In this document: piece after piece, positions 8,152-24,456 of the stretch
Position numbering within the stretch: the stretch's first letter is position 1
How the letters are laid out: each line of letters opens with the position of its first letter
Assembly (NCBI GenBank): GCA_044370205.1
Contig: JBILVW010000002.1
Location: 1-36,829, forward strand
Direction of reading: 5' to 3'
DNA: 36,829 bases
DNA from: Pirellulales bacterium
GTDB lineage: Bacteria; Planctomycetota; Planctomycetia; Pirellulales; UBA1268
Notes under the pieces: generated by a model
What the model was told of the DNA's origin: nothing
Databases searched by the model: none
Seen by the model: the letters and a program-made list of their open reading frames with translations, nothing else
Made by a program: the position numbers and the translations under genes

Positions 8152-8766
8152 TCACAACACCGCCAGCCCCCACGCCGCCACCACGATACAGGCGGCCGCG
8201 AAGGCGGCCGCCAGGCTGGCCCACACGAGGCTCAAGCGGCCGCTCAGCGGCGGGGCGCCCGAGAGGTCAACCGCGGCATCGGGAAGCGGCGGACGCCCCT
8301 GCCCCACCTTCACGAGCTGCTCCTGCCGCCGCAGCCACAACTCGAGCGGCTGCGGCTGATCACGAAACATCCCGCGGAAGCCGAGGACGACGGCCGTCAT
8401 GAAGGCCTCCAGGGCATCGCGGCTGGCGAGACCAGCCGCCTGCTCAGCCCGGTCGAAGAATGCGGTGGCTCGTTCGCGGGAGCGAAACAGATCGACCTCA
8501 AGCGCATGGTTCTCCCACCATGACTGCCCGTGCCAGGGCAGCTCGACGATCAGCAGTTCGTCAACGAGCGCGGCGAGTGCATACGAGGCGAGCTCCCAGT
8601 CGCGGCTTCGCGCACCGCTCACCCGGGCCGCCGCCCGATCGAACACGCCGCGGATCCGTGCCCGCTCCTGCTCCGGATCGCCGGCCGTGCCGGCCGCGAC
8701 GCGCTCGACGAGATCGATCACCTCCAGGAGCGCCGGATCGAAGGCTGCCGCAAAATCCGGAGACAT
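8152..8766 (-). CDS. tssL: T6SS membrane protein TssL (DotU family), 204 aa, with a C-terminal TM anchor and no peptidoglycan-binding extension
   Basis: DotU-like core: WELASYALAALVDELLIVELPW...WWENHALEVDLFRSRERATAFFDRAEQ...DALEAFMTAVVLGFRGMF. The C-terminal helix is LVWASLAAAFAAACIVVAAWGLAVL. I trimmed the track ORF (to 9408, which overlaps tssK) to the ATG at 8764-8766. Confidence 0.85.
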   Translation of the reverse strand: MSPDFAAAFDPALLEVIDLVERVAAGTAGDPEQERARIRGVFDRAAARVSGARSRDWELASYALAALVDELLIVELPWHGQSWWENHALEVDLFRSRERATAFFDRAEQAAGLASRDALEAFMTAVVLGFRGMFRDQPQPLELWLRRQEQLVKVGQGRPPLPDAAVDLSGAPPLSGRLSLVWASLAAAFAAACIVVAAWGLAVL

Positions 8767-8789
8767 GGAGACGGGGATTCCTGGAGGCG

Positions 8790-10262: not shown

Positions 10263-10351
10263 ACCGTGCGCACCGTGCTGAGCCTGGCGTCGCAACCCGA
10301 CGGCCGAGGAAGTGACGGCCTGAGAGCCGTAGAAATCCAGTTTGCAGGCCC

Positions 10352-10370
10352 CCCACAGTAAACCCACAGT
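10352..10370. promoter_or_regulatory. Tandem direct repeat CCCACAGT-N3-CCCACAGT (11-bp phasing) in the tssK / giant-protein divergent control region
   Basis: Exact 8-mers at 10352-10359 and 10363-10370. They lie about 90-108 bp upstream of the tssK ATG and about 160 bp upstream of the plus-strand ATG at 10528. Confidence 0.3.
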
Positions 10371-10460
10371 CGCCCCCGGTAAAGGGGCCACTGCCGAGGG
10401 TGTGTCTCCCTTGACAGATGCCACGCCCCGTCCCAAAACACGGTTTCTCTCGCTCGTGTC

Positions 10461-10481
10461 GCGTCAGGGGAGTCCTGACGC
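10461..10481 (+). promoter_or_regulatory. Perfect 8-bp stem / 5-nt loop hairpin in the likely 5' leader of the first giant gene
   Basis: GCGTCAGG (10461-10468), loop GGAGT, then CCTGACGC (10474-10481). It ends 47 nt upstream of the ATG at 10528. A perfect TTGACA hexamer lies at 10411-10416, but it has no convincing -10 element. Confidence 0.3.
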
Positions 10482-10527
10482 CGATTCAGCCGGCGGCCCG
10501 ACCGGGAGCCGGCCATGGAGTTCCGGC

Positions 10528-13500
10528 ATGCAGAAGCCTTCCGGTTCCTCGCGCGGTTCTCGCCCCGGGGAACGTCGGACTCGCTGGAAAGCGAACCCGG
10601 CTCCTGTAGCCGGCCCGCGCTCGCGACTTCCAGCGAGGCTTGCCTGGACCGCCGCGAGCATCGGCCTGATCGCGGCCGTGGGGATGCTCGTTGTTCCGCC
10701 GCTGTTCATGTGGCACGCGGCCGTCGTCCAACTCACCATCGACGAGTACGACCTGGGCGTGCTTTCGGCCCTGCCGTTCAGCGACCGCGACACCGACGCC
10801 GTCGCCGCGGCAGTCGCCGGGCGGCTGGCGCCGACGATGAATCGGTCCGCCCTGCGGCTCGAGCGGAGTGATACGGCGGCGGCGCTCCGCGAACAGCTGC
10901 GACCTCTCGTCGGCGCGCTGCCGCTGCGGCCCCGGGATGTGCTCGTGGCCGTCGTGCGTGCCCAGTGCGGGATCGCCGGTGCGGCCGACGGCGCTCCGTT
11001 TGCCGGTGTGTTCGCCAGCGACGCTCGGCCTGCCGACCCACTGCCCGAGGAACTGGTCGCATGTCGCGACCTCTTCGCCGCATTCGCCGCCGCGCCCAGC
11101 CGCACCACGCTCGTCGCCGTCGACTTCGGTGATCTGCGGTGGGATCCCCGGCTGGCAGCCGCCGGCGGCATCGTGCCCGCCTTGCTCGACGTGGAGTGCC
11201 GGCGTCCGCTCGCCGAGGATGCGGCCGGCGGCCGGCGTGACCGCGACTGCTGGGTGCTGGGCTCGCACGACACGCTCGAGTTTTCGGCGGTCAATCTGGC
11301 CGCCCGACGCAGTCTCTTTTCGCGGGCGATCGAACTTGCGCTCGCCGGCGCCGCCGACGACCCCCGGTGGGCCGCGGCGGGCGGCGATGGCGATGGCGTC
11401 GTCGAACTCGACGAACTGGCACGATTCACGGCGGCGTGGACGAGCCGCTGGGCGCGGGAGGAAAGCGCCGGCGAGTGGGATCAGCGCCCCGTGCTGTGGA
11501 AGCTCGGCACGGGCCGCGTGCCGCTCGACCAGGTGCCGCCCGGCATCGCCATCATTCGCACCACCGACCGGCGGCCACCGGTCGTGGCGATCGTCGGCAG
11601 CGAAGGGCAGGCCGAGGCGGACCGCGCGGCCGCCGAACCGGCCGCACAGTCCGCGTCAGGTGAGCCGGCGGCGGCTCCTGCCGAGGCAGCCCCGGCCACG
11701 TCGACTCAGCCCACGCCCCAGCCACAGGTCGTGCAGCCCGATGTGCGCGCGATCATCGCTCGACTCGCCGCCGCATCCGAGTCGGAGCCGAGCCCGCTCG
11801 ATTCCATTCCGCATCTCTGGCGAGACGTCGATTCCCTCTCCGCGGCGGTGTCGGCCACGGTGCCGGATGGATCGACGCTGGCCGAGCGCGCCGCACTCCT
11901 CGACCGTCGGCTCGGGATTGGTCTCGATCGGTTCGTGGCCGGGGCCGCCAGTGCCGGTGATGGCGCGGCCGAGGTCACGAAACAGCTCGTGGCGGCCTCG
12001 CGCGCGGTGAGTGCCGCAGGCTTTTCAGCAGCCTGGCGAAATGCGCCGCCCCCGGTGCGGGCAGCACTCGCCTCCCGCAACCGCGCGGTCGAGCTGGCCT
12101 GGTCGACGGCGACGTGGCTCGGGCAGGCTTCGGGCGGTACGCGGGCCTCGACGCATCTGCGAGGCCTGAACCTGCTGCTCGAACGGATCAGGGCGCTGAA
12201 TGCGGCGCTCGACCGCCTGGCCGACCGCCGCGCGGACGGCGACGACGGCTTCGCGGACCTCGACCGCCAGCGAGTCGCCTTGGGGGCGGCCGTCGGCGAA
12301 CTCGCCGCGGCAGTCGATGCCTCGATCGAGGAGTTGCTCGAACGGTTTGCCCGGCCCGGCCCCCGGCCGGTGGCCGAGTTGCGTTGGCTGGCAGCGTCGC
12401 GACTCCCGTCGGCGGCCCAGTTCTCCCGCATCAGCACCGCCCTCGCGCCGCCGGCTCCTCCCGCAACCGGGTCCACTGGTGGGCCGCAAGCAGTCGACCA
12501 GGCGCTGGAATTGAAGGAGCCGGCGCCCGCCGTGCCCGCGAACCGCCTCATCGACCGACTGGCGTGGCGCAACCTCGCGGATCATGCCGATGCGTTTCGG
12601 CTCATGCTGCAGTCGTTCGGACCGCTCGGCCCACAGTTCGAGACACTCGTCGCCGGCGTCGGCACTGCGATCTCTGGATTGACCGCGGCTGCCGAGGATC
12701 CGCCGCGGGCGGCCGACGCGGCGGCAAGGCTCGGCCTGCGGATGGCCGCAGCGCTGGCTGCAGTGCCGGGCGAGATCGATGTGGTGACTCGGAGCCGGTC
12801 AGGCGCGGCCGGCGACCCGTCCCGCATGATCGATGCCTTGACGCGGCTTGCCGATCCGCGTGACGCCACGCGCATCCGCCCTGATGCCCGCGGCTGGGCT
12901 CCGGCTGTCCGCCCCCAGACCGTGCTCGCGCTCAACGTGACGGCCCGCGAGCTCACACTCGACGGCGACCGCCCGCAACGGGTCGCAGTGGCACTCGCAT
13001 CGGCCGCTCCGTTCCCGCCGGCCGCAGCCCTGCGGCTGGACTTCGATCCTGCGCTCATCCGAGTGGTGGCCGTCGGTGGCGACTCGATCACTCCGGGCAC
13101 GGCGTTCTCCCCCGGGGCCCTGGGCATGCGCGATCGCGGCCTGTTCGACGTCACGGCGCGCGGTCGGGCAGCGGGTGGCGCAGACGGTGGCCCCCCGACG
13201 GCCACGCTCACCTGCACACTCGAGGTCGGCCGACGCCGCGAACGAGCCTCGATCACGTTCGATCTGCCCGTTGTCGAGCGGATAGCGATCGCCGTCCGCG
13301 GACCGGCAGGCACGGTCGAAAAAGGTGTGCCCGATGCGTGGCTGACCATGCCGCTCGATCCGCTGACCACCGGCAGCGCGGAAGGGAACCGCAGCATCTC
13401 GCTTCGTCCGTTCCCGGGGCACACGACGGGCTGGGAGCTTTCGCTCGTGAACCGGACGAAACACGCTCGGCGGGTGAGCATCGAATTGGTTTCCTTCGCC

Positions 13501-15276
13501 CCGGATCCCGCAACTGGAGACCCCGGTTTCGGAGCTGCGGAAGCATGGCCGCGGTGCCGCGAAGCGCTTGCCCAGCGCCGCCGTCTCCCCGCGGAAGCGC
13601 GGGTCGTGGCCGCATGTGCGGCACTCGATTTGCCCGCGTCGGACCGGCATGTCGCCGTGCCGCTGCAGCCGACGACCGCTCCCGCACCGGCGGACGGTGC
13701 CGCGCCGGCGCGGGACACGGCAAAGGAGGCCGGCACGCCGCTCGCTTCGACACTTGCGCTCGTGGTACGGGATCTCGTCGAGCCTCCCGCAGCCGACTCG
13801 CCACCGCCGGCGGCTCCACTCTCTTCGACAACGCCACGCACGTGGGCATGCCGCCTCGACCTCGTGCCCCAGCATCCGCGCCGGTATCTCGACACCGCGG
13901 CGCGATGGTCGAGCGACGACCGCTCGATCGCGATCTCGGTCCGACCTCGCGGCGGCGATACCCGCCTGCTGCCGGCGCTCGGCGCGCGAGCTCAGGCAGC
14001 GCCGCTCGAGGCACGGGTCGCCCGCGACCAGCCGCTCGCGATGCGCAAACTGCAGGCTCTGGTCACTGCCGCACGGCCGGCCGACGAACTGCGGGCCGTC
14101 TGGAACGGCGTGGACGAGGCGTCCGCCTGGCTGGCGGTCGATATCGACGGCTACCCCAGGGCCCGCGTGTTCCGGGTGGAATGCGGTCCGGCAGCCTCGG
14201 GCACCGAGCAGCGGCCCCAGGATGATTGGCGGCATGTCGAACTGCTGAGCCCCCGCCGCGATGACGAAGCGTTTCGGGCGCCTGCGGCCACCATTCCGCT
14301 GGTTCTCGCGGCGGATGGCCCGCCCGATGCGTTCGGCACCGGCGGCGGCAGGATCGAGGTGACCGTGCGGCAGGAAGGGGCGCTCGCGGGAGGCTTGCCC
14401 GACCCGGGCCGAGTGGTCTGGTCGGCGGCCACCGATCGGCAGGCGTCGTACGTTCTCGAACCCGCGGAACCGCCGCTCGCGCTGGCCGTTCGTACGACCG
14501 TCTCCGACTGGAACATCGCACTTACCGACGTGGGCTTCCAGGATGTCGATGTCGTCGTCGAGGCGCGGCTGATGCTGCCTGGGGAGGCGGCCCCGCGATC
14601 CGCCCGACGCACGATCGTGCTCGATGGGTCGCCCCCTCGCCTCATGTCGCCACCACGGGCGGTCGTCCACAAGGGCCGTGAGGCCGAGATCGTTGTCGAG
14701 CCCGAGGACGGCCCCGCGTTCAATTCGCTCGTCGGAGGTCGCCGTGCCGGATCCAGCGGCATCGAGCGGGTCGAGTGGGGCCTCGACGTCAAGGGCAACG
14801 GGGCGCCCGAGAAGTGGGAGGTCGCAACCGGCTTGGGCGGCAGTCGCTTCCGCATCGGAGTGCCCACCGAGGCGCTGTCGCTGGGCCGGCACCGACTTCT
14901 CATGAGGGCCTTCGACCGCGTCGGCTTCGAGAGCCGGGCGGCGAGTTGTGATCTGGAGGTCATCCCACCGCCACCGCCCCCCGCCGAGCCGGAGAAGCCC
15001 AAACCCGAGACGCGGAACGCCATTCATGGCCGTGTCACCCTCGACGGGCAGCCGCAGGGGGGCATCACCGTGGCGATCGAGGGGCCAGGCGCGCCGGGTC
15101 CGACAACCAGCGGTCCGGACGGCAGTTTCTCGTTCTCCGGACTCGATCCGGGCGAGTATCGACTCTCCGTCCGCGAAACGACCGTCCGCAACCGCCTCTA
15201 CTCCGCTGGCCCGGTGTCAGCCGCGGTCACTCCGCCCCCCGCTCAGCCCACGGCGGTCGAACTTCCGCTGAAGTGA
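10528..15276 (+). CDS. Giant (1582 aa) single-pass membrane protein. Architecture: Arg-rich N-tail, TM helix, degenerate caspase-like (Peptidase_C14-like) domain lacking the His/Cys dyad, long Ala-rich helical region, beta-rich region, C-terminal CarboxypepD_reg-like domain.
   Basis: - The ATG at 10528 gives MQKPSGSSRGSRPGERRTRWK... followed by the TM helix AWTAASIGLIAAVGMLVVPPLFMW. The track start at 10342 lies in the control region.
- The post-TM domain aligns by eye with the downstream giant protein and ends in GDGDGVVELDELARF.
- The C-terminus IHGRVTLDGQPQGGITVAIEG...TSGPDGSFSFSGLDPGEYRLSV is a textbook carboxypeptidase-regulatory-like fold motif.
- GC3 is high throughout. Confidence 0.8.
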   Translation: MQKPSGSSRGSRPGERRTRWKANPAPVAGPRSRLPARLAWTAASIGLIAAVGMLVVPPLFMWHAAVVQLTIDEYDLGVLSALPFSDRDTDAVAAAVAGRLAPTMNRSALRLERSDTAAALREQLRPLVGALPLRPRDVLVAVVRAQCGIAGAADGAPFAGVFASDARPADPLPEELVACRDLFAAFAAAPSRTTLVAVDFGDLRWDPRLAAAGGIVPALLDVECRRPLAEDAAGGRRDRDCWVLGSHDTLEFSAVNLAARRSLFSRAIELALAGAADDPRWAAAGGDGDGVVELDELARFTAAWTSRWAREESAGEWDQRPVLWKLGTGRVPLDQVPPGIAIIRTTDRRPPVVAIVGSEGQAEADRAAAEPAAQSASGEPAAAPAEAAPATSTQPTPQPQVVQPDVRAIIARLAAASESEPSPLDSIPHLWRDVDSLSAAVSATVPDGSTLAERAALLDRRLGIGLDRFVAGAASAGDGAAEVTKQLVAASRAVSAAGFSAAWRNAPPPVRAALASRNRAVELAWSTATWLGQASGGTRASTHLRGLNLLLERIRALNAALDRLADRRADGDDGFADLDRQRVALGAAVGELAAAVDASIEELLERFARPGPRPVAELRWLAASRLPSAAQFSRISTALAPPAPPATGSTGGPQAVDQALELKEPAPAVPANRLIDRLAWRNLADHADAFRLMLQSFGPLGPQFETLVAGVGTAISGLTAAAEDPPRAADAAARLGLRMAAALAAVPGEIDVVTRSRSGAAGDPSRMIDALTRLADPRDATRIRPDARGWAPAVRPQTVLALNVTARELTLDGDRPQRVAVALASAAPFPPAAALRLDFDPALIRVVAVGGDSITPGTAFSPGALGMRDRGLFDVTARGRAAGGADGGPPTATLTCTLEVGRRRERASITFDLPVVERIAIAVRGPAGTVEKGVPDAWLTMPLDPLTTGSAEGNRSISLRPFPGHTTGWELSLVNRTKHARRVSIELVSFAPDPATGDPGFGAAEAWPRCREALAQRRRLPAEARVVAACAALDLPASDRHVAVPLQPTTAPAPADGAAPARDTAKEAGTPLASTLALVVRDLVEPPAADSPPPAAPLSSTTPRTWACRLDLVPQHPRRYLDTAARWSSDDRSIAISVRPRGGDTRLLPALGARAQAAPLEARVARDQPLAMRKLQALVTAARPADELRAVWNGVDEASAWLAVDIDGYPRARVFRVECGPAASGTEQRPQDDWRHVELLSPRRDDEAFRAPAATIPLVLAADGPPDAFGTGGGRIEVTVRQEGALAGGLPDPGRVVWSAATDRQASYVLEPAEPPLALAVRTTVSDWNIALTDVGFQDVDVVVEARLMLPGEAAPRSARRTIVLDGSPPRLMSPPRAVVHKGREAEIVVEPEDGPAFNSLVGGRRAGSSGIERVEWGLDVKGNGAPEKWEVATGLGGSRFRIGVPTEALSLGRHRLLMRAFDRVGFESRAASCDLEVIPPPPPPAEPEKPKPETRNAIHGRVTLDGQPQGGITVAIEGPGAPGPTTSGPDGSFSFSGLDPGEYRLSVRETTVRNRLYSAGPVSAAVTPPPAQPTAVELPLK

Positions 15277-15519
15277 CGGCGCAGCAGCCGAAATTCTCCA
15301 GTGGCACGGCAGGCGGGGCGCTCAATCCGCTCCAGCCGCTACACATTCCCCACGACACCCCACGAAAGAGTGGGTTTCTCCCGTAGAATTCCTCAGATTC
15401 CGCGAGGGACGTCGGGAATGGGGGTCGATGACTCTCGCGAGGGGGTCACGGACGTCCCGGCACCCGCTCCGTGTCGTTTCGCAACCACAGGCTTCGTTCC
15501 GCTTACGAGGATCTCGATC

Positions 15520-16791
15520 ATGGACCGTTCTCTCCGCCGCTTTGTGTCAGCGGCGGCCTTCGGCTGTCTCTTACTGCCATCGGCCGCTGCGTTTGCTCAG
15601 GCGCCCGCGGCCCCGCCGCAGACGTTCTGGAACTGGATGGGGGTTCCCAAGAATCCGCTCGCGGGCTGCATCAATCGGGGGGGCAACTTCCCCACCTGCG
15701 AGAAGGTGCCGCCGCTGAAGGCGATCGCCGACCCGGCGAATCTGGCCTCGAAGAACCCCGCCATCAAAAAGGCGGCCGAAATCAAGGCCGAGGAGGATCT
15801 CGCCGCGCAGAAGATCAAGGCGATCAAGTACCTCGCAGAAATCGGCTGCGGCGGCTGCTATCCGGGTGTTGCCGAGGCCCTGGCGGCGGCGCTCGATGAC
15901 TGCACCGAGGCGGTGCGATACGAGGCCGTAAAAGCGATCCTGGCGGCGTCTGCATGCGGCCAGAACGACTGCGTGAAGAAGTGCGTCCGCAAGTCGAAGA
16001 CGTGCAAGGAGGCGATGTGCGATTCATGGATGGGCTGCATGAAGCGGACGTGTGCCACCATGCATCTCATGTGCGGCAAGCCCGGTCCCGATGGCGTGAC
16101 TCTGAAGTCGAAACTTCCCGGCTACGGCTGCGGCGCGGGTGGCTCCTGCCAGCCCGGCCGCTGCGCATGCGGCGACGGCAACTGCTGCACGTCACAAATC
16201 CTCAACAAGCTCTCCACGATGGCCTTCGAGAAGGACGATCGGGGCTGCTGGAAGGAGCCGAGTCCCCGCGTGCGGGCGATGGCCCGGCAGGCGTTGCGGG
16301 CCTGCGGACCGAACGTGCGTCCCTACACGGAGGCGCCGGTTCCCATGCCCGAGGAAGTGCCCGCCACGCCCGATGCGGACACGAAGCCCGAGCCCAAGGA
16401 GCAGGCCCCCGAGCCGAAGCGGGAAACCGCCCCTGAAAACCGTGAGGCAGCTCCCGGTTCGTCCGCCACCTCGGTGCTCCCGCCCGAGACCGAGTCGGCC
16501 GACGTCGCGGTGCCGGAGGCCGTCGCGACGCTGCCCGAGGCCGAATCTGTCGATCCCGTTGTCGCGGATCCGGTGATCGCCGAAGACGTGGTCGCCGACA
16601 CTACCACCACGGAAGCCGCGGCTGCCCCGGTGGCTCCGGCTCCGGAAGATCTGTTCCCGACGCCGACGGTCGCGGCGCCGCAGACGATTCGTCCGGCCGC
16701 TACGAAGCCGGTGCGGCCGCGCATGGCCCGGCGCGGTGTGGTCATCCCGACCGCTGCGTTCTTCTCGGGCGATCGCCCGGCGAGCCGCTGA
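15520..16791 (+). CDS. Secreted Cys-rich protein with a HEAT-like repeat segment and an acidic Pro/Glu/Ala-rich C-terminal tail, 423 aa
   Basis: - The ATG at 15520 has AGGA about 10 nt upstream.
- Signal peptide MDRSLRRFVSAAAFGCLLLPSAAAFA/QAP.
- HEAT-like segment KIKAIKYLAEIGCGGCYPGVAEALAAALDDCTEAVRYEAVKAIL.
- About 21 Cys in roughly 240 residues of the mature part (CGGC, CxxxC and NCC clusters).
- Low-complexity tail PEEVPATPDADTKPEPKEQAPEPKRETAPE... Confidence 0.8.
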   Translation: MDRSLRRFVSAAAFGCLLLPSAAAFAQAPAAPPQTFWNWMGVPKNPLAGCINRGGNFPTCEKVPPLKAIADPANLASKNPAIKKAAEIKAEEDLAAQKIKAIKYLAEIGCGGCYPGVAEALAAALDDCTEAVRYEAVKAILAASACGQNDCVKKCVRKSKTCKEAMCDSWMGCMKRTCATMHLMCGKPGPDGVTLKSKLPGYGCGAGGSCQPGRCACGDGNCCTSQILNKLSTMAFEKDDRGCWKEPSPRVRAMARQALRACGPNVRPYTEAPVPMPEEVPATPDADTKPEPKEQAPEPKRETAPENREAAPGSSATSVLPPETESADVAVPEAVATLPEAESVDPVVADPVIAEDVVADTTTTEAAAAPVAPAPEDLFPTPTVAAPQTIRPAATKPVRPRMARRGVVIPTAAFFSGDRPASR

Positions 16792-16837
16792 AGCCCAATG
16801 CGGAGGGATCGCCCTCTCCGAGGGTGGTCCCTCCGTC

Positions 16838-19800
16838 ATGGGCGGTATACTCCCGCTCATGACTGCATCTGATCGATCCGCTGGCGGCGGCCGGCGGGAT
16901 GCCTGGCGAGGGAAAGGGGGCGGACACCGCCCGTCATCGCCCTCCGTCGTGAACCCGCGGTGGCGTGGCCGCCACCCCTCGGCCAACGACGTCGAGTACG
17001 TGAGCCGACAGCGGCGGCTCGCGGCATGGCGGTTCGGGTTGAGCGCCGCGGCGTTGGCGCTCGTCGTCCTGCTGGTCGCGCTGCTCCTGGGTATGAAGCG
17101 GCAGGTGCCACTGATCGCGGGGGTCGTGTGGTCGTATCGCACGCCCCTCGGCCCGTTGCCGCTGGCCGAAGAGGATCGCCGCCTGGTGAACGGACTGTCG
17201 CGGGCCGGCACACTCGACCCCGGCACGGCCCGCGTCATCGACATCTCGACGAGCCTGCAAGACGCCGATGCCGACCAGTTCGCGGCCGCGTGCTGCCGCC
17301 CTCTCCCGGGCCTCAGGCCCGGTGGGCCGCGGGGCGACATGTTGATCGTCCACCTGACGGCGATCGGGGGCGTCGACCGTGACGGACGCGCCTGTCTCGT
17401 CATGCCAAAGGCGAACGCCGACATCGCCACGGCCGACGAGCGCTGGCTGAGGGTCGATGCCCTGCTCGCACGACTGACTGCTGCGCGGCCGGCAAACACA
17501 GCGCTGCTCGTGGTGCTCGACGCCTGCCGCTCCGCCCACGCCGAGACGCTCGGAGTGCTCGACGGCACATTCGCTGCGGCAGTGGCCGTCGATGTGAAGG
17601 CCGCGAATCACGACCGGCTCTGGGTGCTGACGTCGGCCGGCCCCGGCGAGACGGCCTGCGCCTCCGCGGTTGACGGCGCCTCGCTGTTCGCCGCCGCGTT
17701 CGCCGACGGGATCGAGGGATCAGCGGATGCGGCGCCGTCGGGCGATGATGATGGACGAGTGGAGTTGGCCGAGTTGGCCGCCTACCTGCGCGACGAGGTC
17801 GATCGTCGCGCCCTCGTGCATCACGGCAGACATCAGCGACCACTCATGGTGCCGTCGCCGGCCGAAGCGAACGCCGAAGTCGCGGTCGCTTGGGCGGTGC
17901 GGAAGACGCCCACGGCTCGATCGATCGCGTCGGCAACACTCGCATCGGCAATGTCCGTATGGCTCACGGATCGTTGGGCGGCCGCCGAGTCTTTGCGCGA
18001 CCGGTGCGTGCACGAACAGCCGCTGGCCTGGTCCGGATACGAATCGCTCCTCCTGCGGGCGGAGCGGCTCGCGGCGGCCGGCGCCGCGGCCGAGGCCGAA
18101 CTCAAGGAGACGAGAACGGCCGTCGAGGTGACAGAGCAGTTGCTGCGGCAGCCGCTCGTCGCCGGCGGCAACACGCTGCCTGGCGTGAGACTCGCGCGGC
18201 TCGCCGGCGGCGCAGCTCCGACGGCTGATCCTGCGTGGCTCGTCAAGCTGGAAGACTGGTCGCGAAGCGTTTCGACGCCCGGGGGTGAGACCGGCGATGA
18301 AGCGGCTCCACCGCCGTGCCTCGATGCGGGCCAATGGCGCTGCCGGGCCGCCGCAGCTTGGGAGCGGTTCGTGTCGTTGACGAAGGCCGGGGCCCCGATC
18401 GACCGCAGCGGATGGCAGCGTTGGAACGACCTGCTTGGGCCACCGCCCGCCGGCGTTGGACTCATTCCCGGCGAGGTGCAGGCAGCCCGCTTGCTGGCCT
18501 CGGGTATCGACGAGTCGGCTTGGAGTTCGGCGCCGACGCTGATGGGCCGCGTGGCGGCTCTGGCCGACGAAGCCGCCTTGGCCATGCTGCCTGACGACGT
18601 TCGCGCCGATGCGATCGTCGAGGCGGTGACGCCGACCCGCGACGCCGATGCGGCACGGCGGACCGCATTCGATCTCACGGTCGTGGGCGATGACATCGCG
18701 TTGGCCGGCGCCGCGAAAGCGGCCCAAGCCGCAGGCGACCAATATGGCCAGGCCGCCAACCTGGGAGCTCTGGCATCGGACGCCTGGAGGTTGCTCGATC
18801 AGGTGCGGGCGGAATGGCCATGGCTGGCACTCTGGACTGCCGCCGACACGGCCGCTTCGCTGGAGCGCCCGCCCACGGGCGGCCTGGCGACCCCCGGCGC
18901 AGCCGTCGACTGGAAAAACCTCGCCCCGGCAGTGGCCCGCCTGGAGACCGCCCTGACGGCAAGCGTGGAGCAGCGAGGAGGCCAAGCCACGGTCGCCATG
19001 ATTCGGGAGGCCTTCCGCGAAGCGGACGGCTTGTTCTCGATCATTCGCGGCAACTATGACGACGCGTGCGACACGCTGGCAGAACGCGCCGCCGGCAATG
19101 CCACGACGCTCGCAGCCATTCGGGCGGCGCTCGCGACGCCGCTCGTCGCCGGTGAACGGCGAATGCGGCTCCTGGAACGTGCCGGCCTGCTCGCTGCCGA
19201 ACTGCACGCCCAGCCCGTGCCGACGGCCCGGGACCAGGTTGCGGCGGCCGATGCCCCGCCGATCGGTGCAGCCGGCGCATGGGTGGCGTGGAGCGGCGGC
19301 GCGCATCCCTTCGTCGCCGCGCTCGGTCTGGCGGATGAGCATGCCAGTCGGCCACCGGCGTCGGCGGCCGATCTGGCCGTTGCCGCCGGCAGACAGGGTC
19401 TGGCAATCCGTACCGCGGCAGCGCAGCTGCGGACAGTGTCGCGGGAGACGACGGCCGCCGGCGAGACGACCATCGCCGACAGGACAGCCAACGCGTCCAC
19501 CGCCCGCCGACTGGCGCCGCTTGGCCCGGCATTCGCGGTCGAGGGCCTGGCACTCGAGGCGGAAGCCTCTCCGATCACGCTCCAACTCGGCCATGCCTGG
19601 CATGTGCGGCTCATCCGTGTCGCTTCGACCATTCTCGATGATTTTTTCGGCGGCGCAGGGCCGGATGATCCGCCCTGGTTCGCGCCCGCGGCCGCAGCGT
19701 GCCTCGAGCAGGGGGCGGCATTCGGCTCCGGAGCGGCATTCGATCGCGTCTCGGGCCGCCTGGAGATGCTCCGCCTGGCACCGCAGGAATGGGCCGTGCT

Positions 19801-21919
19801 CGAGACAACCCCGGACCGGATCGGGGCGGCGGGAGACGGTGGCTCAACGGCCGTCCGGTCCACGCTCGTCGTCGATGACCGGATCGCCGCCGCCTTCACT
19901 CCGGGCGACGCCGCCCTGTGGCTCACGGATGGTGTCATTGACGAGCCTCTGTCGCTGCTGGGGGTGGCGACGACGGGCCCCGCCGCGTCGCGGCTTGTCG
20001 TGCCAGCGGCCCGACCGGGGACCGACGGCCGGCCGCAATCCATCGAGTGGCGGGTCGATCGCGCCGCGGCAGCCCGCGTTGCGGCGCGCGAGGGCAGTAC
20101 GATGCCCCTCACGGTCTGGTTCCGCGGCCACCCGATCCTGCGCGATCTGCCGGTCGGCGGGGGCGGTGGTGCGCAGCCAGTCGTCTGGAGGCGGCCGTCG
20201 CCGCTCCCGCCGCGGGTCACCGTCCGTGGCATTCCCCAGCGCCGCGGTTCCGTCTCGTTCATCTTCGATTGCTCGGGCAGCATGGGGGCCGATGCCCCGA
20301 ACGGCCGCCGCCGATTCGATGTCGGCCGTGAATCCCTCTACGACGTGCTGCAGGCCATGGCGAAGGCGGGCACCTGGGATGCGTCGCTCTGGCTCTACGG
20401 CCATCGCACTCGCTGGATCAAGCGGGCCGGCGGAGGATACGAGCCAGGCCTGTCCGACGCCGGCGAACGGGAACGGGCGGCGGCCACGCAGGCGGGGCGG
20501 CCGTTCACGCTCGAGCCCGGAATGGACGTCCAACGCGTGCTGCCGATGCAGCCGATGGGGCCGGCTCAGGCCCGCGAGGTGATCCAGTTGCTCTCGCAGC
20601 TACGGCCGGCTGGCGAGACACCGCTCTATCTCGCTCTCCGCAGCGCGCTGATGGACGACATGCCGGCGATTGCGGGCGAAGCGGCGTGGCGGGTTGTGGT
20701 CGTCACTGACGGCGTCAATGACCAGACCGGCGTCCAGCCGCTCACCATGGCCCGCGACGTCCGCGAGACGCTCGCCGCCGTGAACCGCGGGCGTTCGTCG
20801 CCGGTGCATGTCGACGTCATCGCATTCGACATCCGGGGAGGGGGCCAGGCGAAGCGCGAGCTCGAGTCGCTCGCCCGCGAGTCTGGGGGGCAATTCGTCG
20901 AAGCCGCCGACCCTTCCGCCCTGCTCACCGCCCTGCGGAACTTCCTGTCGCTGGCCCGTTGGGAAGTGCGCGACGACGCACGGGTCGTCGCCGCCGCCGA
21001 ACTCGGGTCGGCCATCGAGCTGCCGATCGTCAACGACAGCGCCGCCGTGTCTTACCGCGTCTCGATCGAGGGCCGGGAGGGTGCGCCGGCCACCGTCTCG
21101 GTGAACGGAAGCGAGGCCCTCGAGTTGTTCGTCGCGACCAACGGCCGTGGACTGGAACACCGCCGCTACGACGGCGGCACCGAGCAGGGTCTCCGCGACC
21201 GACAGGCCGGACTCGCCGACCCGCTCGATCAGCGGACACGCTGGTTCGTCGGAGCACATCTTCCCCGGCGCGAGGGGGCTGCCGTGCGGTTTCCGATCTC
21301 GGTGCAGAACGACGACGAGTCGCTGTTCACGCCGCGGCCGGTCGCGTGGTGGGCGGAAGTCATACCCGAAGGCGTTCCGGGGTCGCGGCCGTTCGTGGTG
21401 TATGACGCCGAATTCCAGCCCCGTCGTCCCGTGCCGGTCATCGATCTGACGGTTCCCGACTGGCCGCGTGAGGCCTCGCAGGCGGCGATTCGCGTCTGGT
21501 TCTCCATGCAGCCGCAGGAGCCGGCCGCCACGATCGCCGTCGATGGTCTGTCAGAAGGCGTCCAACAACGGTTCACGTTTCCGGAGTTGGCCGGCATAGG
21601 AGTAGACGCCGTCTTCGAAAAACGGGGGAGTGATCAGGGCCGGATCACCGTCGTGGAGCGGCATCCAAGCGAAGCGGCCGCCGGGCTGCCACGGCTGGTG
21701 GTGAAGTGCGAGCCTCTCTGCGACCGCGCCTCGCACACCGTCGATGCCGCCGCCGCGGAGGTCCGCCATGAGTTCGACATCAGGCTCGACTCCGGCGGCA
21801 TTCCCAAGGGTACCCGCGTCACTTTCGTGGCGGCCGAACGTCTCAAGGAACAGGCCGTCGGCCCACTCGCCCCTGCCGGAGCCCTACAGCCCCTCCGCGT
21901 GACCATTCCGACCGACTGA
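16838..21919 (+). CDS. Giant (about 1693 aa) single-pass membrane protein. Architecture: Arg-rich N-tail, TM helix, caspase-like (Peptidase_C14-like) domain with His and Cys retained, long Ala-rich helical region, vWA domain with MIDAS motif, beta-rich C-terminal region.
   Basis: - TM helix FGLSAAALALVVLLVALLLG.
- Caspase-like blocks MLIVHLTAIGG (His codon 17351-17353) and ALLVVLDACRSAH (Cys codon 17525-17527), with the domain ending in GDDDGRVELAELAAYLRDEV.
- vWA blocks GSVSFIFDCSGSMG (D-x-S-x-S at 20267-20281) and WRVVVVTDGVND.
- The start is uncertain. The ATG at 16838 is 46 nt after the previous stop, the ATG at 16859 is an alternative, and the track GTG at 16736 overlaps the upstream gene by 56 nt. 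Confidence 0.85.
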   Translation: MGGILPLMTASDRSAGGGRRDAWRGKGGGHRPSSPSVVNPRWRGRHPSANDVEYVSRQRRLAAWRFGLSAAALALVVLLVALLLGMKRQVPLIAGVVWSYRTPLGPLPLAEEDRRLVNGLSRAGTLDPGTARVIDISTSLQDADADQFAAACCRPLPGLRPGGPRGDMLIVHLTAIGGVDRDGRACLVMPKANADIATADERWLRVDALLARLTAARPANTALLVVLDACRSAHAETLGVLDGTFAAAVAVDVKAANHDRLWVLTSAGPGETACASAVDGASLFAAAFADGIEGSADAAPSGDDDGRVELAELAAYLRDEVDRRALVHHGRHQRPLMVPSPAEANAEVAVAWAVRKTPTARSIASATLASAMSVWLTDRWAAAESLRDRCVHEQPLAWSGYESLLLRAERLAAAGAAAEAELKETRTAVEVTEQLLRQPLVAGGNTLPGVRLARLAGGAAPTADPAWLVKLEDWSRSVSTPGGETGDEAAPPPCLDAGQWRCRAAAAWERFVSLTKAGAPIDRSGWQRWNDLLGPPPAGVGLIPGEVQAARLLASGIDESAWSSAPTLMGRVAALADEAALAMLPDDVRADAIVEAVTPTRDADAARRTAFDLTVVGDDIALAGAAKAAQAAGDQYGQAANLGALASDAWRLLDQVRAEWPWLALWTAADTAASLERPPTGGLATPGAAVDWKNLAPAVARLETALTASVEQRGGQATVAMIREAFREADGLFSIIRGNYDDACDTLAERAAGNATTLAAIRAALATPLVAGERRMRLLERAGLLAAELHAQPVPTARDQVAAADAPPIGAAGAWVAWSGGAHPFVAALGLADEHASRPPASAADLAVAAGRQGLAIRTAAAQLRTVSRETTAAGETTIADRTANASTARRLAPLGPAFAVEGLALEAEASPITLQLGHAWHVRLIRVASTILDDFFGGAGPDDPPWFAPAAAACLEQGAAFGSGAAFDRVSGRLEMLRLAPQEWAVLETTPDRIGAAGDGGSTAVRSTLVVDDRIAAAFTPGDAALWLTDGVIDEPLSLLGVATTGPAASRLVVPAARPGTDGRPQSIEWRVDRAAAARVAAREGSTMPLTVWFRGHPILRDLPVGGGGGAQPVVWRRPSPLPPRVTVRGIPQRRGSVSFIFDCSGSMGADAPNGRRRFDVGRESLYDVLQAMAKAGTWDASLWLYGHRTRWIKRAGGGYEPGLSDAGERERAAATQAGRPFTLEPGMDVQRVLPMQPMGPAQAREVIQLLSQLRPAGETPLYLALRSALMDDMPAIAGEAAWRVVVVTDGVNDQTGVQPLTMARDVRETLAAVNRGRSSPVHVDVIAFDIRGGGQAKRELESLARESGGQFVEAADPSALLTALRNFLSLARWEVRDDARVVAAAELGSAIELPIVNDSAAVSYRVSIEGREGAPATVSVNGSEALELFVATNGRGLEHRRYDGGTEQGLRDRQAGLADPLDQRTRWFVGAHLPRREGAAVRFPISVQNDDESLFTPRPVAWWAEVIPEGVPGSRPFVVYDAEFQPRRPVPVIDLTVPDWPREASQAAIRVWFSMQPQEPAATIAVDGLSEGVQQRFTFPELAGIGVDAVFEKRGSDQGRITVVERHPSEAAAGLPRLVVKCEPLCDRASHTVDAAAAEVRHEFDIRLDSGGIPKGTRVTFVAAERLKEQAVGPLAPAGALQPLRVTIPTD

Positions 21920-22412: not shown

Positions 22413-22415
22413 GAC

Positions 22416-24450: not shown

Positions 24451-24456
24451 CGGCGG

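What the first reader, a model, noticed from the sequence alone, without database searches (positions are those of the whole stretch)
10528..21919. Divergent from tssK: a caspase / pseudo-caspase pair of giant membrane-anchored proteins, one with a vWA domain, as a candidate new T6SS-associated envelope module
Three plus-strand genes share a 265-bp control region with the tssK-tssL-tssM operon.

The two giant proteins (about 1582 and 1693 aa) have the same architecture: an Arg-rich cytoplasmic tail, one TM helix, a caspase-like domain ending in D-x-D-G-x-V-E-L-x-E-L, several hundred residues of Ala-rich helix, then beta-rich domains. By hand alignment they are paralogs.

The TssM of this locus ends right after TM3, and no TssJ is visible in the window. 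These extracytoplasmic giants are therefore candidates for the missing periplasm-spanning or outer part of the membrane complex. Alternatively they could be a surface sensor: PpkA in Pseudomonas aeruginosa is a precedent for a periplasmic vWA domain controlling a T6SS.

I know of no described T6SS component with this architecture. The functional link rests only on adjacency and divergent arrangement.
Basis: partly seen in the sequence, partly recalled or inferred. Interest (0 to 1): 0.85.

Follow-up and report, generated by a model that had tools for sequence, protein, structure and literature searches.

The report
Giant pseudo-caspase partners of a T6SS
Two huge inner-membrane-anchored proteins with inactive caspase-like domains, plus a small secreted partner, sit next to a type VI secretion (injection) gene cluster that lacks its usual periplasm-crossing parts in dozens of Planctomycetota genomes, which makes them strong candidates for an undescribed envelope part, or sensor, of that machine.

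Summary
The three plus-strand genes are real and lie 265 bp from, and divergent to, tssK-tssL-tssM. Both giants (1582 and 1693 aa) have an Arg-rich N-terminal tail with a conserved W-R motif, one TM helix and a caspase-fold domain (AlphaFold pLDDT 90; all top Foldseek hits are caspases, MALT1 or metacaspases).

Two corrections:
- They are paralogous only over the first ~300 residues.
- Neither has a complete His-Cys dyad. Giant 1 has Gln/Gly in 24/24 orthologs. Giant 2 has Ile/Cys here, and only 3/23 orthologs keep both.

Giant 2 carries a VWA domain whose MIDAS motif is invariant. Giant 1 continues as a ~380-aa helical region and about eight beta-sandwich domains.

TssM ends 5 residues after TM3, and none of the 37 TssM-like ORFs found exceeds 618 codons. 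No TssJ or long TssM appears elsewhere in the cluster.

Linkage is strong: 31/37 informative genome loci have tssK directly upstream of giant 1. Distant giant-2 relatives sit in hcp-vgrG-fha-PAAR operons or opposite tssA.

The function is unproven. A periplasm-spanning replacement for the TssM periplasmic domain and TssJ is my preferred reading (~0.45). A VWA envelope sensor linked to Ser/Thr kinases is the main rival. I found no published description.

The parts
8790..10262 (-). tssK (490 aa), first gene of the divergent tssK-tssL-tssM operon
   Evidence: Pfam T6SS_VasE, E 5.6e-80. It lies directly upstream of giant 1 in 31/37 informative genome loci.
8152..8790 (-). tssL (DotU, 212 aa), with a C-terminal TM helix at aa 193-211 and no periplasmic domain
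   Evidence: Pfam DotU, E 4.6e-24. Hydropathy scan.
6532..8112 (-). Short tssM (526 aa). It has TM1, TM2, the cytoplasmic IcmF-related_N domain and TM3, and ends 5 residues after TM3.
   Evidence: Pfam IcmF-related_N only. TIGR03348 matches only model positions 192-363 of 1168. TM helices at 31-49, 65-83 and 503-521. None of the 37 TssM-like ORFs in related loci exceeds 618 codons.
10263..10527 (.). 265-bp divergent intergenic region between tssK and giant 1
   Evidence: Gene starts are fixed by orthologs. The gap is about 170-315 bp in related loci. The consensus scan found no sigma-70-type promoter here.
10528..15276 (+). Giant 1 (1582 aa): N-in single-pass membrane protein made of pseudo-caspase, helical region, beta-sandwich array and CarboxypepD_reg domain
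   Evidence: 38 homologous clusters (37 more than 900 aa; 20-100% of the query aligned by BLASTP). 56 genome loci. AF2 model of aa 400-1582, pLDDT 81.7.
10639..10695 (+). Giant 1 TM helix (aa 38-56), preceded by an Arg-rich tail with a conserved R-W-[KR] motif
   Evidence: Hydropathy scan. Tail alignment: the W-[KR] motif is present in every ortholog that has an N-terminus.
10705..11532 (+). Giant 1 pseudo-caspase domain (aa ~60-335). The catalytic His position is Gln146 and the Cys position is Gly201. It ends in G-D-G-D-G-V-V-E-L-D-E-L.
   Evidence: hhalign to the giant 2 N-domain: probability 99%, E 5.8e-18. Gln and Gly in 24/24 orthologs.
11743..12873 (+). Giant 1 helical region (aa ~406-782)
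   Evidence: AF2 secondary structure: helices H7-H383 of the model.
12931..15270 (+). Giant 1 array of about eight beta-sandwich (Ig/MG-like) domains. The last is CarboxypepD_reg (aa 1499-1555, nt 15022-15192).
   Evidence: AF2. Foldseek hits are to alpha2-macroglobulin, complement, contactin and GhpA arrays, with TM only ~0.1. Pfam PF13620, E 4.3e-8.
15520..16791 (+). Middle gene (423 aa): Sec signal peptide (AFA|QA), conserved P-x-T-[FL]-W-x-[FW]-[LM]-G-[IV]-P motif, 22 Cys, HEAT-like repeats and a Pro/Glu/Ala-rich tail
   Evidence: Hydropathy scan and sequence. Weak Pfam HEAT. Hits in 43 ORFs from related loci in all three locus types; about 40 distinct sequences were listed, most with ~20 Cys.
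16838..21919 (+). Giant 2 (1693 aa): N-in single-pass membrane protein made of pseudo-caspase, long Ala-rich region, VWA(MIDAS) domain and a beta-rich C-terminus
   Evidence: 35 homologous clusters. A profile of aa 345-1110 finds 782 clusters at 50% identity; most of the 150 listed are 1.5-1.9 kaa with the match at about residues 330-1100.
17033..17089 (+). Giant 2 TM helix (aa 66-84), preceded by an Arg-rich tail with two W-R-G motifs
17099..17872 (+). Giant 2 caspase-fold domain (aa ~88-345). The His position is Ile176 and Cys230 is retained. It ends in G-D-D-D-G-R-V-E-L-A-E-L.
   Evidence: AF2 pLDDT 90.3 plus Foldseek hits to caspases, MALT1 and metacaspases. NCBIfam NF047832, E 8.8e-9. Column counts.
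20240..20947 (+). Giant 2 VWA domain (aa ~1135-1370) with MIDAS residues D1144, S1146, S1148, T1261 and D1291
   Evidence: Invariant in 23/23 orthologs. Pfam VWA-type models hit 13/23 orthologs, best E 4.4e-10. D-x-S-x-S-M is present in 111/123 full-length distant relatives.

Best explanation

**Proposed mechanism**
- Both giants are anchored in the inner membrane by one N-terminal helix. A short Arg-rich tail with a W-R motif faces the cytoplasm, where TssK, TssL and TssM sit.
- The paralogous, catalytically dead caspase-fold domains lie just outside the membrane. They probably pair with each other, as caspase-fold domains usually do.
- The helical and beta-sandwich parts then extend across the periplasm, which in planctomycetes can be much enlarged.
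- The intact MIDAS site of the giant 2 VWA domain makes a metal-dependent contact with a distal partner.
- Together they would supply the periplasm-spanning, outer-envelope part of the membrane complex. Elsewhere that part comes from the periplasmic domain of TssM and the lipoprotein TssJ, both absent here.

**Shown:** the architecture, the fold, the loss of catalytic residues, MIDAS conservation, the short TssM, and the conserved linkage to T6SS genes.

**Inferred:** heterodimerisation, spanning of the periplasm, contact with TssL/TssM, and any structural role.
For: 1. **Synteny.** The order tssK-L-M(short) <-> giant 1 - middle - giant 2 is identical in three distinct metagenome contigs at about 31-47% identity, with different genes after giant 2 each time. 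tssK is directly upstream of giant 1 in 31/37 informative genome loci, and 34/37 have some T6SS gene nearby.
2. **The module persists in other arrangements.** In L088/L089 the tssA-B-C-hcp-impE-tssE-F-G-PAAR-vgrG operon is divergent from a VWA giant. That giant is followed by a second giant with a TM helix, a pseudo-caspase domain and a CarboxypepD_reg domain, with a HEAT-repeat protein like the middle gene about 1.5-1.8 kb further on, after a signal-peptide gene on the opposite strand. In eight L071-type loci the giant-2 relative follows vgrG and fha (hcp and PAAR where present or within the contig).
3. **The canonical periplasmic parts are missing.** TssM ends 5 aa after TM3 and TssL ends at its TM helix. 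None of 37 TssM-like ORFs exceeds 618 codons. The remainder of the cluster shows no IcmF_C, IcmF-related or TssJ family.
4. **The architecture fits a spanning scaffold.** The proteins are N-in and single-pass, with about 1500 extracytoplasmic residues. These include a ~380-aa helical region and about eight beta-sandwich domains. Invariant residues cluster at both ends of giant 1.
5. **The caspase domains are non-catalytic family-wide.** Only 3 of the 132 representatives with an aligned N-domain keep both His and Cys. That points to a scaffold or interaction role.
6. **There is a precedent.** The Bacteroidota T6SSiii uses an unrelated membrane complex, TssNQOPR. Its TssR has a vWA-like domain and its TssP has PKD (Ig-like) domains (PMC10781749). 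The planctomycete periplasm can be greatly enlarged (PMC5394234).
Against: - I detected no homology to the TssM periplasmic domain or to TssJ. Pfam found nothing. Foldseek with giant 1 aa 400-1582 returned only generic Ig/MG arrays at TM ~0.1. A profile search with giant 2 aa 345-1110 returned (among the 150 hits listed) proteins of giant-2 size and layout; the five scanned carry VWA, none a TssM family.
- One giant-1 clade (P0012-14; L013, L069), 42% identical over the full length, lies next to PSCyt/PSD1-DUF1501 genes with no T6SS gene within 10 kb.
- Some distant giant-2 relatives have no T6SS neighbour (L005, L077).
- Distant relatives are often adjacent to Ser/Thr kinases, FHA proteins or a PP2C phosphatase, which fits signalling as well as structure.
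- I identified no outer-membrane insertion or lipidation feature.
- The absence of a long TssM and of TssJ was checked only within the clusters, not across whole genomes.
- There are no expression, interaction or functional data.
Confidence: 0.45

Rival explanations
1. The module is a trans-envelope sensor or regulator of the T6SS, not a structural part. The extracytoplasmic VWA/MIDAS domain of giant 2, helped by giant 1 and the secreted middle protein, would detect a ligand, envelope damage or cell contact. It would then control assembly or firing through a cytoplasmic partner: Ser/Thr kinase plus FHA in some lineages, and possibly the cluster-encoded FliA-type sigma factor here. This would be analogous to the periplasmic VWA domain of PpkA in the Pseudomonas aeruginosa threonine-phosphorylation pathway.
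For: - A Ser/Thr kinase gene follows the giant-2 relative in L071, L074, L075, L076, L078, L079 and L082 (gaps of 3 to about 185 bp). An FHA gene is seen in the same operon in L071, L074, L078, L079 and L082 (L075 and L076 are cut before that point), and FHA also precedes the giant-2 relative in L080 and L084.
- L073 has a divergent membrane Ser/Thr kinase next to middle-gene-like and giant-2-like genes.
- L077 has a PAS-PP2C (SpoIIE) phosphatase upstream.
- The MIDAS motif is the most conserved 'active' feature of the family.
- FHA is present in a related Pirellulaceae cluster (L011).
- A FliA/WhiG-type sigma factor is embedded in the window's cluster.
- From my own knowledge, the PpkA periplasmic VWA domain is needed for H1-T6SS activation.
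Against: - The giants have no kinase, HAMP, phosphatase or other output domain. Their cytoplasmic tails are only ~37 and ~65 residues.
- No kinase or FHA gene lies in the window or in the 10 kb beyond tssG in close relatives.
- Proteins of ~1600 aa with about eight Ig-like domains are unusually large for a sensor.
- This reading does not explain how a T6SS with a TssM that stops at TM3 and no TssJ crosses the periplasm.
Confidence: 0.3
2. The giants are envelope proteins with a function of their own that merely tend to be inherited with the T6SS island. Examples would be a periplasmic protease trap, a cell-wall or adhesion scaffold, or a surface adhesin that helps hold prey, like the grappling-hook protein GhpA that works alongside a T6SS in Aureispira.
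For: - The beta-sandwich array gives Foldseek hits to alpha2-macroglobulins, complement proteins and GhpA fragments.
- VWA/MIDAS domains are typical adhesion modules.
- One giant-1 clade and some giant-2 relatives lie away from T6SS genes.
Against: - The Foldseek hits are generic (TM ~0.1).
- The alpha2-macroglobulin thioester motif is absent from giant 1. The single CLEQ in giant 2 is not conserved.
- The N-terminal TM anchor holds the proteins in the inner membrane, and no export route to the surface is evident.
- Linkage to T6SS genes survives three different gene orders and sequence divergence down to ~25% identity. Passive hitch-hiking does not explain that.
Confidence: 0.12
3. Giant 2 is an active extracytoplasmic caspase-like protease that processes T6SS components, effectors or giant 1.
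For: - The domain has a caspase fold.
- Cys230 is retained in 20/23 orthologs.
- Three orthologs (P0047, P0048, P0054) keep both His and Cys.
Against: - The catalytic His position is Ile in the window protein, and is a residue other than His in 19/23 orthologs.
- In the wider family, only 3 of the 132 representatives with an aligned N-domain keep both residues. Most have His with Asn, Gly or Ser at the Cys position.
- Giant 1 lacks both residues in 24/24 orthologs.
Confidence: 0.03

Closest known systems
Canonical T6SS(i) membrane complex TssJ-TssL-TssM
   Same: The cluster has the same core genes: tssA, B, C, E, F, G, K, L, M, clpV, vgrG and impE. TssL and the N-terminal two-thirds of TssM (TM1-2, cytoplasmic domain, TM3) are present, so baseplate docking at the inner membrane is probably conventional.
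   Different: TssM stops at TM3 and no TssJ is found in the cluster. The giants show no detectable sequence or fold similarity to the TssM periplasmic domain or to TssJ.
Bacteroidota T6SS(iii) membrane complex TssN-Q-O-P-R (Bongiovanni et al. 2024, PMC10781749)
   Same: It is a precedent for a lineage-specific, non-homologous envelope complex encoded next to tssK. It also uses a vWA-like domain (TssR) and Ig-like PKD domains (TssP) in the periplasm.
   Different: T6SSiii lacks TssL and TssM altogether, whereas TssL and a short TssM are kept here. TssNQOPR proteins are much smaller and have no caspase-fold domain.
PpkA / TagQRST / Fha1 threonine-phosphorylation pathway of the P. aeruginosa H1-T6SS (own knowledge)
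   Same: An extracytoplasmic VWA domain is attached to an inner-membrane protein encoded in a T6SS cluster. Distant giant-2 relatives are encoded next to Ser/Thr kinases and FHA proteins.
   Different: The giants carry no kinase domain. The VWA domain is embedded in a 1.7-kaa protein with pseudo-caspase and helical parts. There is no kinase or FHA gene in this window.
Bacterial pseudo-orthocaspases (Klemencic et al. 2019, PMC6426788) and the eukaryotic caspase-8 / cFLIP pair (own knowledge)
   Same: These are caspase-fold domains that have lost the His-Cys dyad. The cFLIP precedent shows paralogous caspase-fold domains acting through heterodimerisation rather than catalysis.
   Different: The described pseudo-orthocaspases replace His-Cys with Tyr-Ser, going by that paper's abstract. 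From my own knowledge they are small cytoplasmic proteins. Here the substitutions are Gln/Gly and Ile/Cys (His/Asn in distant relatives), the domains are membrane-anchored and extracytoplasmic, and they are fused to >1200 further residues. Heterodimerisation is only inferred.
Bacterial alpha2-macroglobulins (e.g. E. coli ECAM, PDB 4rtd)
   Same: They are inner-membrane-tethered periplasmic giants of ~1600 aa built largely of beta-sandwich (MG) domains. They appear among the Foldseek hits.
   Different: There is no conserved CxEQ thioester motif. The TM-scores are only ~0.1. ECAM has no caspase-fold or VWA domain and no T6SS linkage.

Membership tests
Caspase-hemoglobinase fold / Peptidase_C14 (clan CD) | Caspase-like alpha/beta fold | tested here: met
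   The AF2 model of giant 2 aa 84-350 has pLDDT 90.3. The top 50 Foldseek PDB hits are caspases, MALT1 or metacaspases, plus one uncharacterised bacterial protein, GSU0716 (E down to 1.9e-8, TMq 0.42-0.59), and 101 hits have E <= 0.001. Giant 1 qualifies through homology to giant 2 (hhalign 99%).
Caspase-hemoglobinase fold / Peptidase_C14 (clan CD) | Sequence match to the family model above its curated cut-off | tested here: not met
   Pfam PF00656 gives no hit at E < 0.1 for either window protein. NCBIfam NF047832 scores 35 bits against a cut-off of 140. Distant relative P0210 does pass PF00656 (23.6 bits against 21.4).
Caspase-hemoglobinase fold / Peptidase_C14 (clan CD) | Catalytic His-Cys dyad | tested here: not met
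   Giant 1 has Gln146/Gly201 in 24/24 orthologs. Giant 2 has Ile176/Cys230, and only 3/23 orthologs have both residues. In the wider family 3 of the 132 representatives with an aligned N-domain have both. These are therefore pseudo-caspases.
von Willebrand factor A (VWA) domain | MIDAS motif D-x-S-x-S ... T ... D | tested here: met
   D1144, S1146, S1148, T1261 and D1291 are invariant in 23/23 orthologs. D-x-S-x-S-M is present in 111/123 full-length distant relatives.
von Willebrand factor A (VWA) domain | Pfam VWA model above the gathering score | tested here: inconclusive
   The window protein scores 14.9 bits against 23.8. 13/23 orthologs hit VWA_2 (best E 4.4e-10). Distant relatives pass VWA or VWA_2.
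T6SS membrane complex TssJLM | TssM with a periplasmic domain (IcmF-related, IcmF_C) | tested here: not met
   TssM is 526 aa, matches IcmF-related_N only, and has TM3 at 503-521. None of 37 TssM-like ORFs in related loci exceeds 618 codons.
T6SS membrane complex TssJLM | TssJ outer-membrane lipoprotein in the cluster | tested here: not met
   No such family appears among the window ORFs scanned. None appears among the called genes of L001-L004 and L006-L011, which cover the cluster from giant 2 to clpV/vgrG. Whole genomes were not searched.
T6SS membrane complex TssJLM | The giants are homologous to the TssM periplasmic domain or to TssJ | tested here: not met
   There are no Pfam or NCBIfam hits. 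No PDB sequence hit was found. Foldseek with giant 1 aa 400-1582 shows no TssM or TssJ in the top 50. A profile of giant 2 aa 345-1110 returned (among the 150 hits listed) proteins of giant-2 size and layout. The fold of the giant 2 helical part was not modelled.
T6SS membrane complex (functional sense) | Physical association with TssL/TssM/TssK and requirement for secretion | not testable with these tools
   This needs pull-downs, two-hybrid assays, cryo-tomography and deletion mutants.
PpkA-type T6SS sensor kinase | Ser/Thr kinase domain fused to the periplasmic VWA domain | tested here: not met
   Neither giant has a Pkinase hit. Kinases are separate neighbouring genes, and only in distant loci.
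Bacterial alpha2-macroglobulin | Conserved CxEQ thioester motif | tested here: not met
   Giant 1 has none. The CLEQ at giant 2 aa 955 is not conserved: the Cys is kept in 12/23 and the Gln in 6/23 orthologs, and the Cys is Tyr in most distant relatives.
Known anti-phage defence systems (PADLOC) | Match to any PADLOC model | tested here: not met
   No hits for giant 1, the middle gene, giant 2 or the small 152-aa ORF.

The most novel reading that the evidence does not exclude
Planctomycetota have a third, undescribed kind of T6SS trans-envelope complex. In it, two inner-membrane-anchored giant pseudo-caspase proteins (one with a MIDAS-VWA domain) and a secreted Cys-rich HEAT-like protein replace TssJ and the periplasmic domain of TssM. 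These parts are long enough to bridge the enlarged planctomycete periplasm, and the dead caspase-fold domains act as the membrane-proximal heterodimerisation hub.
Probability: 0.35. Interest if true: 0.85.

Novelty: new variant of a known kind. Interest (0 to 1): 0.72.

Why it matters
The T6SS membrane complex was long thought to be universal (TssJLM). The Bacteroidota system then showed that a whole phylum uses unrelated proteins.

This locus points to another solution. The core T6SS keeps TssL and only the cytoplasmic and membrane part of TssM. It is always accompanied by a conserved trio of uncharacterised envelope proteins. The giant-2 helical-region profile alone matches hundreds of sequence clusters, none annotated beyond 'hypothetical protein', 'carboxypeptidase regulatory-like domain-containing protein' or 'Mg-chelatase subunit ChlD'.

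If the trio is structural, it shows how a contractile injection machine is anchored across an unusually wide periplasm. It would also give bacterial pseudo-caspases a concrete scaffold role. If it is regulatory, it is a new type of VWA-based envelope sensor for T6SS firing.

Either way, it makes an open question directly testable: how does a T6SS that lacks TssJ and the periplasmic part of TssM cross the envelope?

Tried and rejected
**Searches that found nothing**
- Pfam, NCBIfam and PADLOC scans of the giants found no TssM, TssJ or defence family.
- phmmer of both giants, and a profile of the N-domains, against PDB sequences found no caspase or TssM hit. The only results were an insignificant match to a designed protein and EF-hand matches to the D-x-D-G loop.
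- Eight literature searches found no description of this module or of a short TssM in Planctomycetota.

**Uninformative or failed attempts**
- Foldseek with the 1183-residue giant 1 model was swamped by generic Ig/MG arrays, so it says little about the helical part.
- The consensus promoter and terminator scan of 10000-22700 was uninformative.
- A motif conserved between tssK and giant 1 in the ~40%-identity group (ATCGTA-N16-GTAAACT) was not evident in the window's intergenic sequence or in the alignment with its three closest relatives; I did not search for it formally there.
A narrower alignment (A8) worked.

**Ideas considered and rejected**
- Full-length paralogy of the two giants.
- An active protease.
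- An alpha2-macroglobulin thioester.
- The ORF at 21919-22506 belonging to the module. It has no homolog in any related locus.
- The middle protein being a TssJ-like lipoprotein. Most orthologs have an A-x-A|Q signal-peptidase-I site, and only two distant ones (L053, L067) have a lipobox-like G-C.

Full report
**1. What is in the window**

The window is ~70% G+C, so long spurious ORFs are common. The genes below are fixed by Pfam matches and by orthologs.

On the minus strand lies a type VI secretion (T6SS) cluster (Pfam):

| Gene | Coordinates |
|---|---|
| tssC paralog | 193-1833 |
| tssC | 1871-3373 |
| tssB | 3416-4009 |
| tssA | 4069-5220 |
| FliA/WhiG-type sigma factor | 5348-6058 |
| conserved 152-aa gene | 6055-6513 |
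| short tssM | 6532-8112 |
| tssL | 8152-8790 |
| tssK | 8790-10262 |

On the plus strand, 265 bp from tssK, lie giant 1 (10528-15276, 1582 aa), a middle gene (15520-16791, 423 aa) and giant 2 (16838-21919, 1693 aa). Database proteins 99% identical to the giants have exactly these lengths. The window's own contig continues beyond tssC2 with impE, tssE, tssF and tssG (L006).

**2. Checking the described architecture**

Topology:
- Hydropathy gives one TM helix in each giant, at aa 38-56 and 66-84.
- Each helix is preceded by an Arg/Lys-rich tail with 10 and 13 basic residues. This predicts N-in topology, with ~1500 residues outside the cytoplasm.
- The tails carry a conserved W-[RK] motif. Giant 1 has one copy in every ortholog that has an N-terminus, and giant 2 has two copies.

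The domain after the TM helix:
- Pfam Peptidase_C14 does not match it.
- NCBIfam 'caspase, EACC1-associated type' hits giant 2 aa 166-323 at E 8.8e-9, below the curated cut-off.
- An AlphaFold2 model of giant 2 aa 84-350, built on an alignment of both families, has pLDDT 90.3 and pTM 0.91.
- Its top 50 Foldseek PDB matches are all caspases, the MALT1 paracaspase or metacaspases, plus one uncharacterised bacterial protein (GSU0716). The best E is 1.9e-8, TMq is 0.42-0.59 (mostly ~0.55), and 101 hits have E <= 0.001.

So the caspase fold is real.

The rest of the proteins:
- An AF2 model of giant 1 aa 400-1582 (pLDDT 81.7) shows ~380 residues of long helices followed by about eight beta-sandwich domains. 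The last of these is the Pfam CarboxypepD_reg domain.
- Giant 2 has a VWA domain. Pfam is weak for this protein, but 13/23 orthologs hit VWA models, and the MIDAS residues D1144, S1146, S1148, T1261 and D1291 are invariant in 23/23.
- The middle protein has a Sec signal peptide, a conserved P-x-T-[FL]-W-x-[FW]-[LM]-G-[IV]-P motif, 22 cysteines and HEAT-like repeats.

**3.

First, the giants are paralogs only at the N-terminus. Profile-profile comparison aligns aa ~15-326 of giant 1 with aa ~32-337 of giant 2 (probability 99%, E 5.8e-18) and nothing else. BLASTP finds only 59 residues.

Second, this is not a caspase / pseudo-caspase pair.
- At the catalytic His and Cys positions, giant 1 has Gln and Gly in 24/24 orthologs.
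- Giant 2 has Ile and Cys in this window. Cys is kept in 20/23 orthologs, His in 4/23, and both in 3/23.
- Of the 146 distant representatives, 132 had an aligned N-domain, and only 3 of those keep both residues. The commonest state is His with Asn, Gly or Ser at the Cys position.

The family as a whole is non-catalytic.

**4. Is TssM really truncated and TssJ absent?**
- TssM is 526 aa and matches only IcmF-related_N. Against the full TssM model, only positions 192-363 of 1168 are matched.
- Its TM helices lie at 31-49, 65-83 and 503-521, and it ends 5 residues after TM3.
- TssL ends at its TM helix.
- In 37 TssM-like ORFs from related loci, none is longer than 618 codons stop-to-stop.
- Contigs covering the rest of the cluster show impE, tssE, tssF, tssG, clpV, vgrG, PAAR, hcp and FHA. 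They show no long TssM and no TssJ family (L006, L009, L010, L011).

Whole genomes could not be searched.

**5. Is the link to the T6SS more than adjacency in one genome?**

Close and moderately distant relatives:
- Three distinct metagenome contigs carry giant-1 orthologs at about 31-47% identity. All have the same order, tssC2-tssC-tssB-tssA-sigma-short tssM-tssL-tssK <-> giant 1 - middle - giant 2. The genes after giant 2 differ every time, so the conserved block ends at giant 2.
- A scan of one genome per GTDB species found 56 loci. All are Planctomycetota apart from evident mis-binnings.
- Of the 37 loci with at least 1.8 kb upstream, 31 have tssK directly upstream and divergent.
- Three of the other six still have T6SS genes nearby: L064 has tssL-tssM, L055 has tssA-B-C plus sigma, and L053 has a VipA/VipB-like ORF plus vgrG.
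- Only L013, L063 and L066 show no T6SS gene in the flank available.
- Giant 2 follows giant 1 in 17/25 loci that have at least 4 kb downstream.

The wider giant-2 family:
- A profile of giant 2 aa 345-1110, searched against 1.84 billion representatives, found 782 clusters at E <= 0.001 and 140 at E <= 1e-30. Most of the 150 listed are 1.5-1.9 kaa (123 of the 146 new ones are at least 1400 aa), with the match at about residues 330-1100. Two of the five scanned pass or nearly pass Pfam Peptidase_C14, and all five hit VWA models.
- In eight loci of one distant clade, the relative follows vgrG and fha. The fullest form (L071, L074) is hcp-vgrG-fha-PAAR-DUF4384-(WD40 + caspase)-giant 2-like-Ser/Thr kinase; hcp, PAAR, DUF4384, the WD40 + caspase gene or the kinase are missing or cut off in some (L076 is cut before fha). 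A middle-gene homolog lies nearby in six of them.
- In L088/L089, the tssA-B-C-hcp-impE-tssE-F-G-PAAR-vgrG operon is divergent from a VWA giant. That giant is followed by a second giant with a TM helix, a pseudo-caspase domain and a CarboxypepD_reg domain, then a signal-peptide protein on the opposite strand, then a HEAT-repeat protein like the middle gene.

The trio therefore stays with T6SS genes through three different gene orders and down to ~25% identity.

**6. Counter-examples**
- A giant-1 clade (P0012-14; L013, L069), 42% identical over the full length, lies beside PSCyt/PSD1-DUF1501 and glnA. It is followed by a 386-458-aa CarboxypepD_reg protein with a VWA-like part, and no T6SS gene lies within 10 kb.
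- Distant giant-2 relatives L005 and L077 have no T6SS neighbours. L077 has a PAS-PP2C phosphatase upstream.
- L073 has middle-gene-like and giant-2-like genes beside a membrane Ser/Thr kinase, with no T6SS gene on its 17.5-kb contig.

**7. What it most likely does**

Shown:
- A conserved, T6SS-linked trio of envelope proteins.
- Two N-in giants with dead caspase-fold domains next to the membrane.
- An intact MIDAS site.
- A T6SS whose canonical periplasmic parts are missing.

Inferred, as my preferred reading (~0.45):
- The giants pair through their paralogous pseudo-caspase domains. This would resemble the heterodimerising caspase-8 / cFLIP pair (own knowledge).
- They dock by TM helix and W-R tail to TssL/TssM.
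- They extend across the periplasm to provide what the TssM periplasmic domain and TssJ provide elsewhere.

Two papers make this plausible. Bacteroidota use an unrelated complex, TssNQOPR, which includes a vWA-like domain (TssR) and PKD domains (TssP) (PMC10781749). The planctomycete periplasm can be greatly enlarged (PMC5394234), which would favour very long spanning proteins.

Against this reading:
- There is no similarity to TssM or TssJ.
- Detached family members exist.
- No outer-membrane feature is recognisable.

**8. The main rival**

The main rival (~0.3) is a sensor or regulator. The VWA domain outside the membrane recalls PpkA of P. aeruginosa. Distant relatives are repeatedly adjacent to Ser/Thr kinases, FHA proteins or a PP2C phosphatase. 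The window's cluster carries its own sigma factor.

Against it:
- The giants have no output domain and very short cytoplasmic tails.
- There is no kinase or FHA gene in the window or within 10 kb beyond tssG in close relatives.
- It leaves the missing periplasmic complex unexplained.

The two readings are not exclusive.

Less likely readings:
- An independent envelope function that travels with the island (~0.12). The thioester motif of alpha2-macroglobulins is absent or not conserved.
- An active protease (~0.03).

**9. Novelty**

Eight full-text searches found no description of this module, of a short TssM in Planctomycetota, or of caspase-like proteins in T6SS clusters. Rhodopirellula baltica has been known to have T6SS genes since 2009 (PMC2660368). 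Source annotations for family members are 'hypothetical protein', 'carboxypeptidase regulatory-like domain-containing protein' or 'Mg-chelatase subunit ChlD'.

I rate this a new variant of a known kind: a T6SS with a lineage-specific envelope module. It is not yet a categorically new system, because the role of the module is unproven.

Noticed in passing
window 193-1833 and 1871-3373 (minus strand): There are two tandem tssC (VipB) paralogs, about 37% identical to each other. The duplication is conserved in almost all related loci (L001-L004, L006-L010, L017, L021, L022, L038 and others). It suggests a heteromeric or specialised sheath.
   Followed up: partly
window 5348-6058 and 6055-6513 (minus strand): A FliA/WhiG-family sigma factor, and in the closer relatives a small conserved 146-154-aa gene with no family match, are embedded between tssM and tssA. 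The sigma factor is conserved in most related clusters. It could drive both divergent operons.
   Followed up: partly
Intergenic tssK-giant 1 regions of 26 related loci (e.g. L017, L019, L038-L051): A motif, ATCGTA-N16-GTAAACT, is conserved in more than 80% of these loci. Read towards tssK as AGTTTAC-N16-TACGAT, it looks like a -35/-10 pair. It was not evident in the window's own 265-bp region or in the alignment with its three closest relatives, though I did not search for it formally there.
   Followed up: partly
window 21919-22506 (plus strand): A 195-aa ORF starts at the giant 2 stop codon. It has no family match and no homolog in any related locus. It is probably spurious or lineage-specific and is not part of the module.
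   Followed up: yes
L013, L014, L069, L070: One giant-1 clade (42% identical over the full length) is detached from T6SS genes. It sits after a PSCyt/PSD1 + DUF1501 pair and before a 386-458-aa CarboxypepD_reg protein whose middle resembles the giant 2 VWA region. I do not know whether those genomes have a T6SS.
   Followed up: partly
L071, L074, L076, L078, L079, L082 (and shorter forms in L080, L084): A conserved island reads hcp-vgrG-fha-PAAR-DUF4384-(1127-aa WD40 protein with a C-terminal caspase domain related to the giants' N-domain, E 1.8e-9)-giant 2-like-Ser/Thr kinase with TPR. A 700-800-aa middle-gene homolog lies nearby.
   Followed up: partly
L053 (CP043547.1, Planctomycetales bacterium 10988, complete genome) 2618-4192: A single 524-aa ORF carries both VipA (TssB) and VipB (TssC) matches, with the VipB part lacking the gpW/gp25-like domain. 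It lies next to vgrG, a giant-1-like 1821-aa protein and a HEAT-repeat middle-gene homolog. It could be a fused or degenerate sheath gene.
   Followed up: no
L088 19332-20723 and L089 19413-20996 (minus strand): A signal-peptide protein of 463-527 aa lies between the second giant and the HEAT protein. It has a weak match (E 0.003) to the Phenol_MetA_deg outer-membrane-barrel family, so it may be an outer-membrane partner in that locus type.
   Followed up: no
window 22400-36829: The rest of the window is ordinary chromosome, going by the translations (not family-checked). It holds a sulfotransferase-like ORF, a glycosyltransferase, thrS (27067-29142), glnA (29584-30996), a ROK regulator, an aldose 1-epimerase and a cytochrome P450. 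The T6SS island therefore ends at about 22 kb.
   Followed up: no
L019, L023, L027, L032, L035, L040, L045, L048, L050, L068: Several MAG records that carry the module are titled 'Candidatus Kuenenia' or 'Chitinophagaceae'. Their loci are near-identical in organisation to those of Pirellulales/Planctomycetaceae MAGs. The titles probably reflect binning or naming errors.
   Followed up: no
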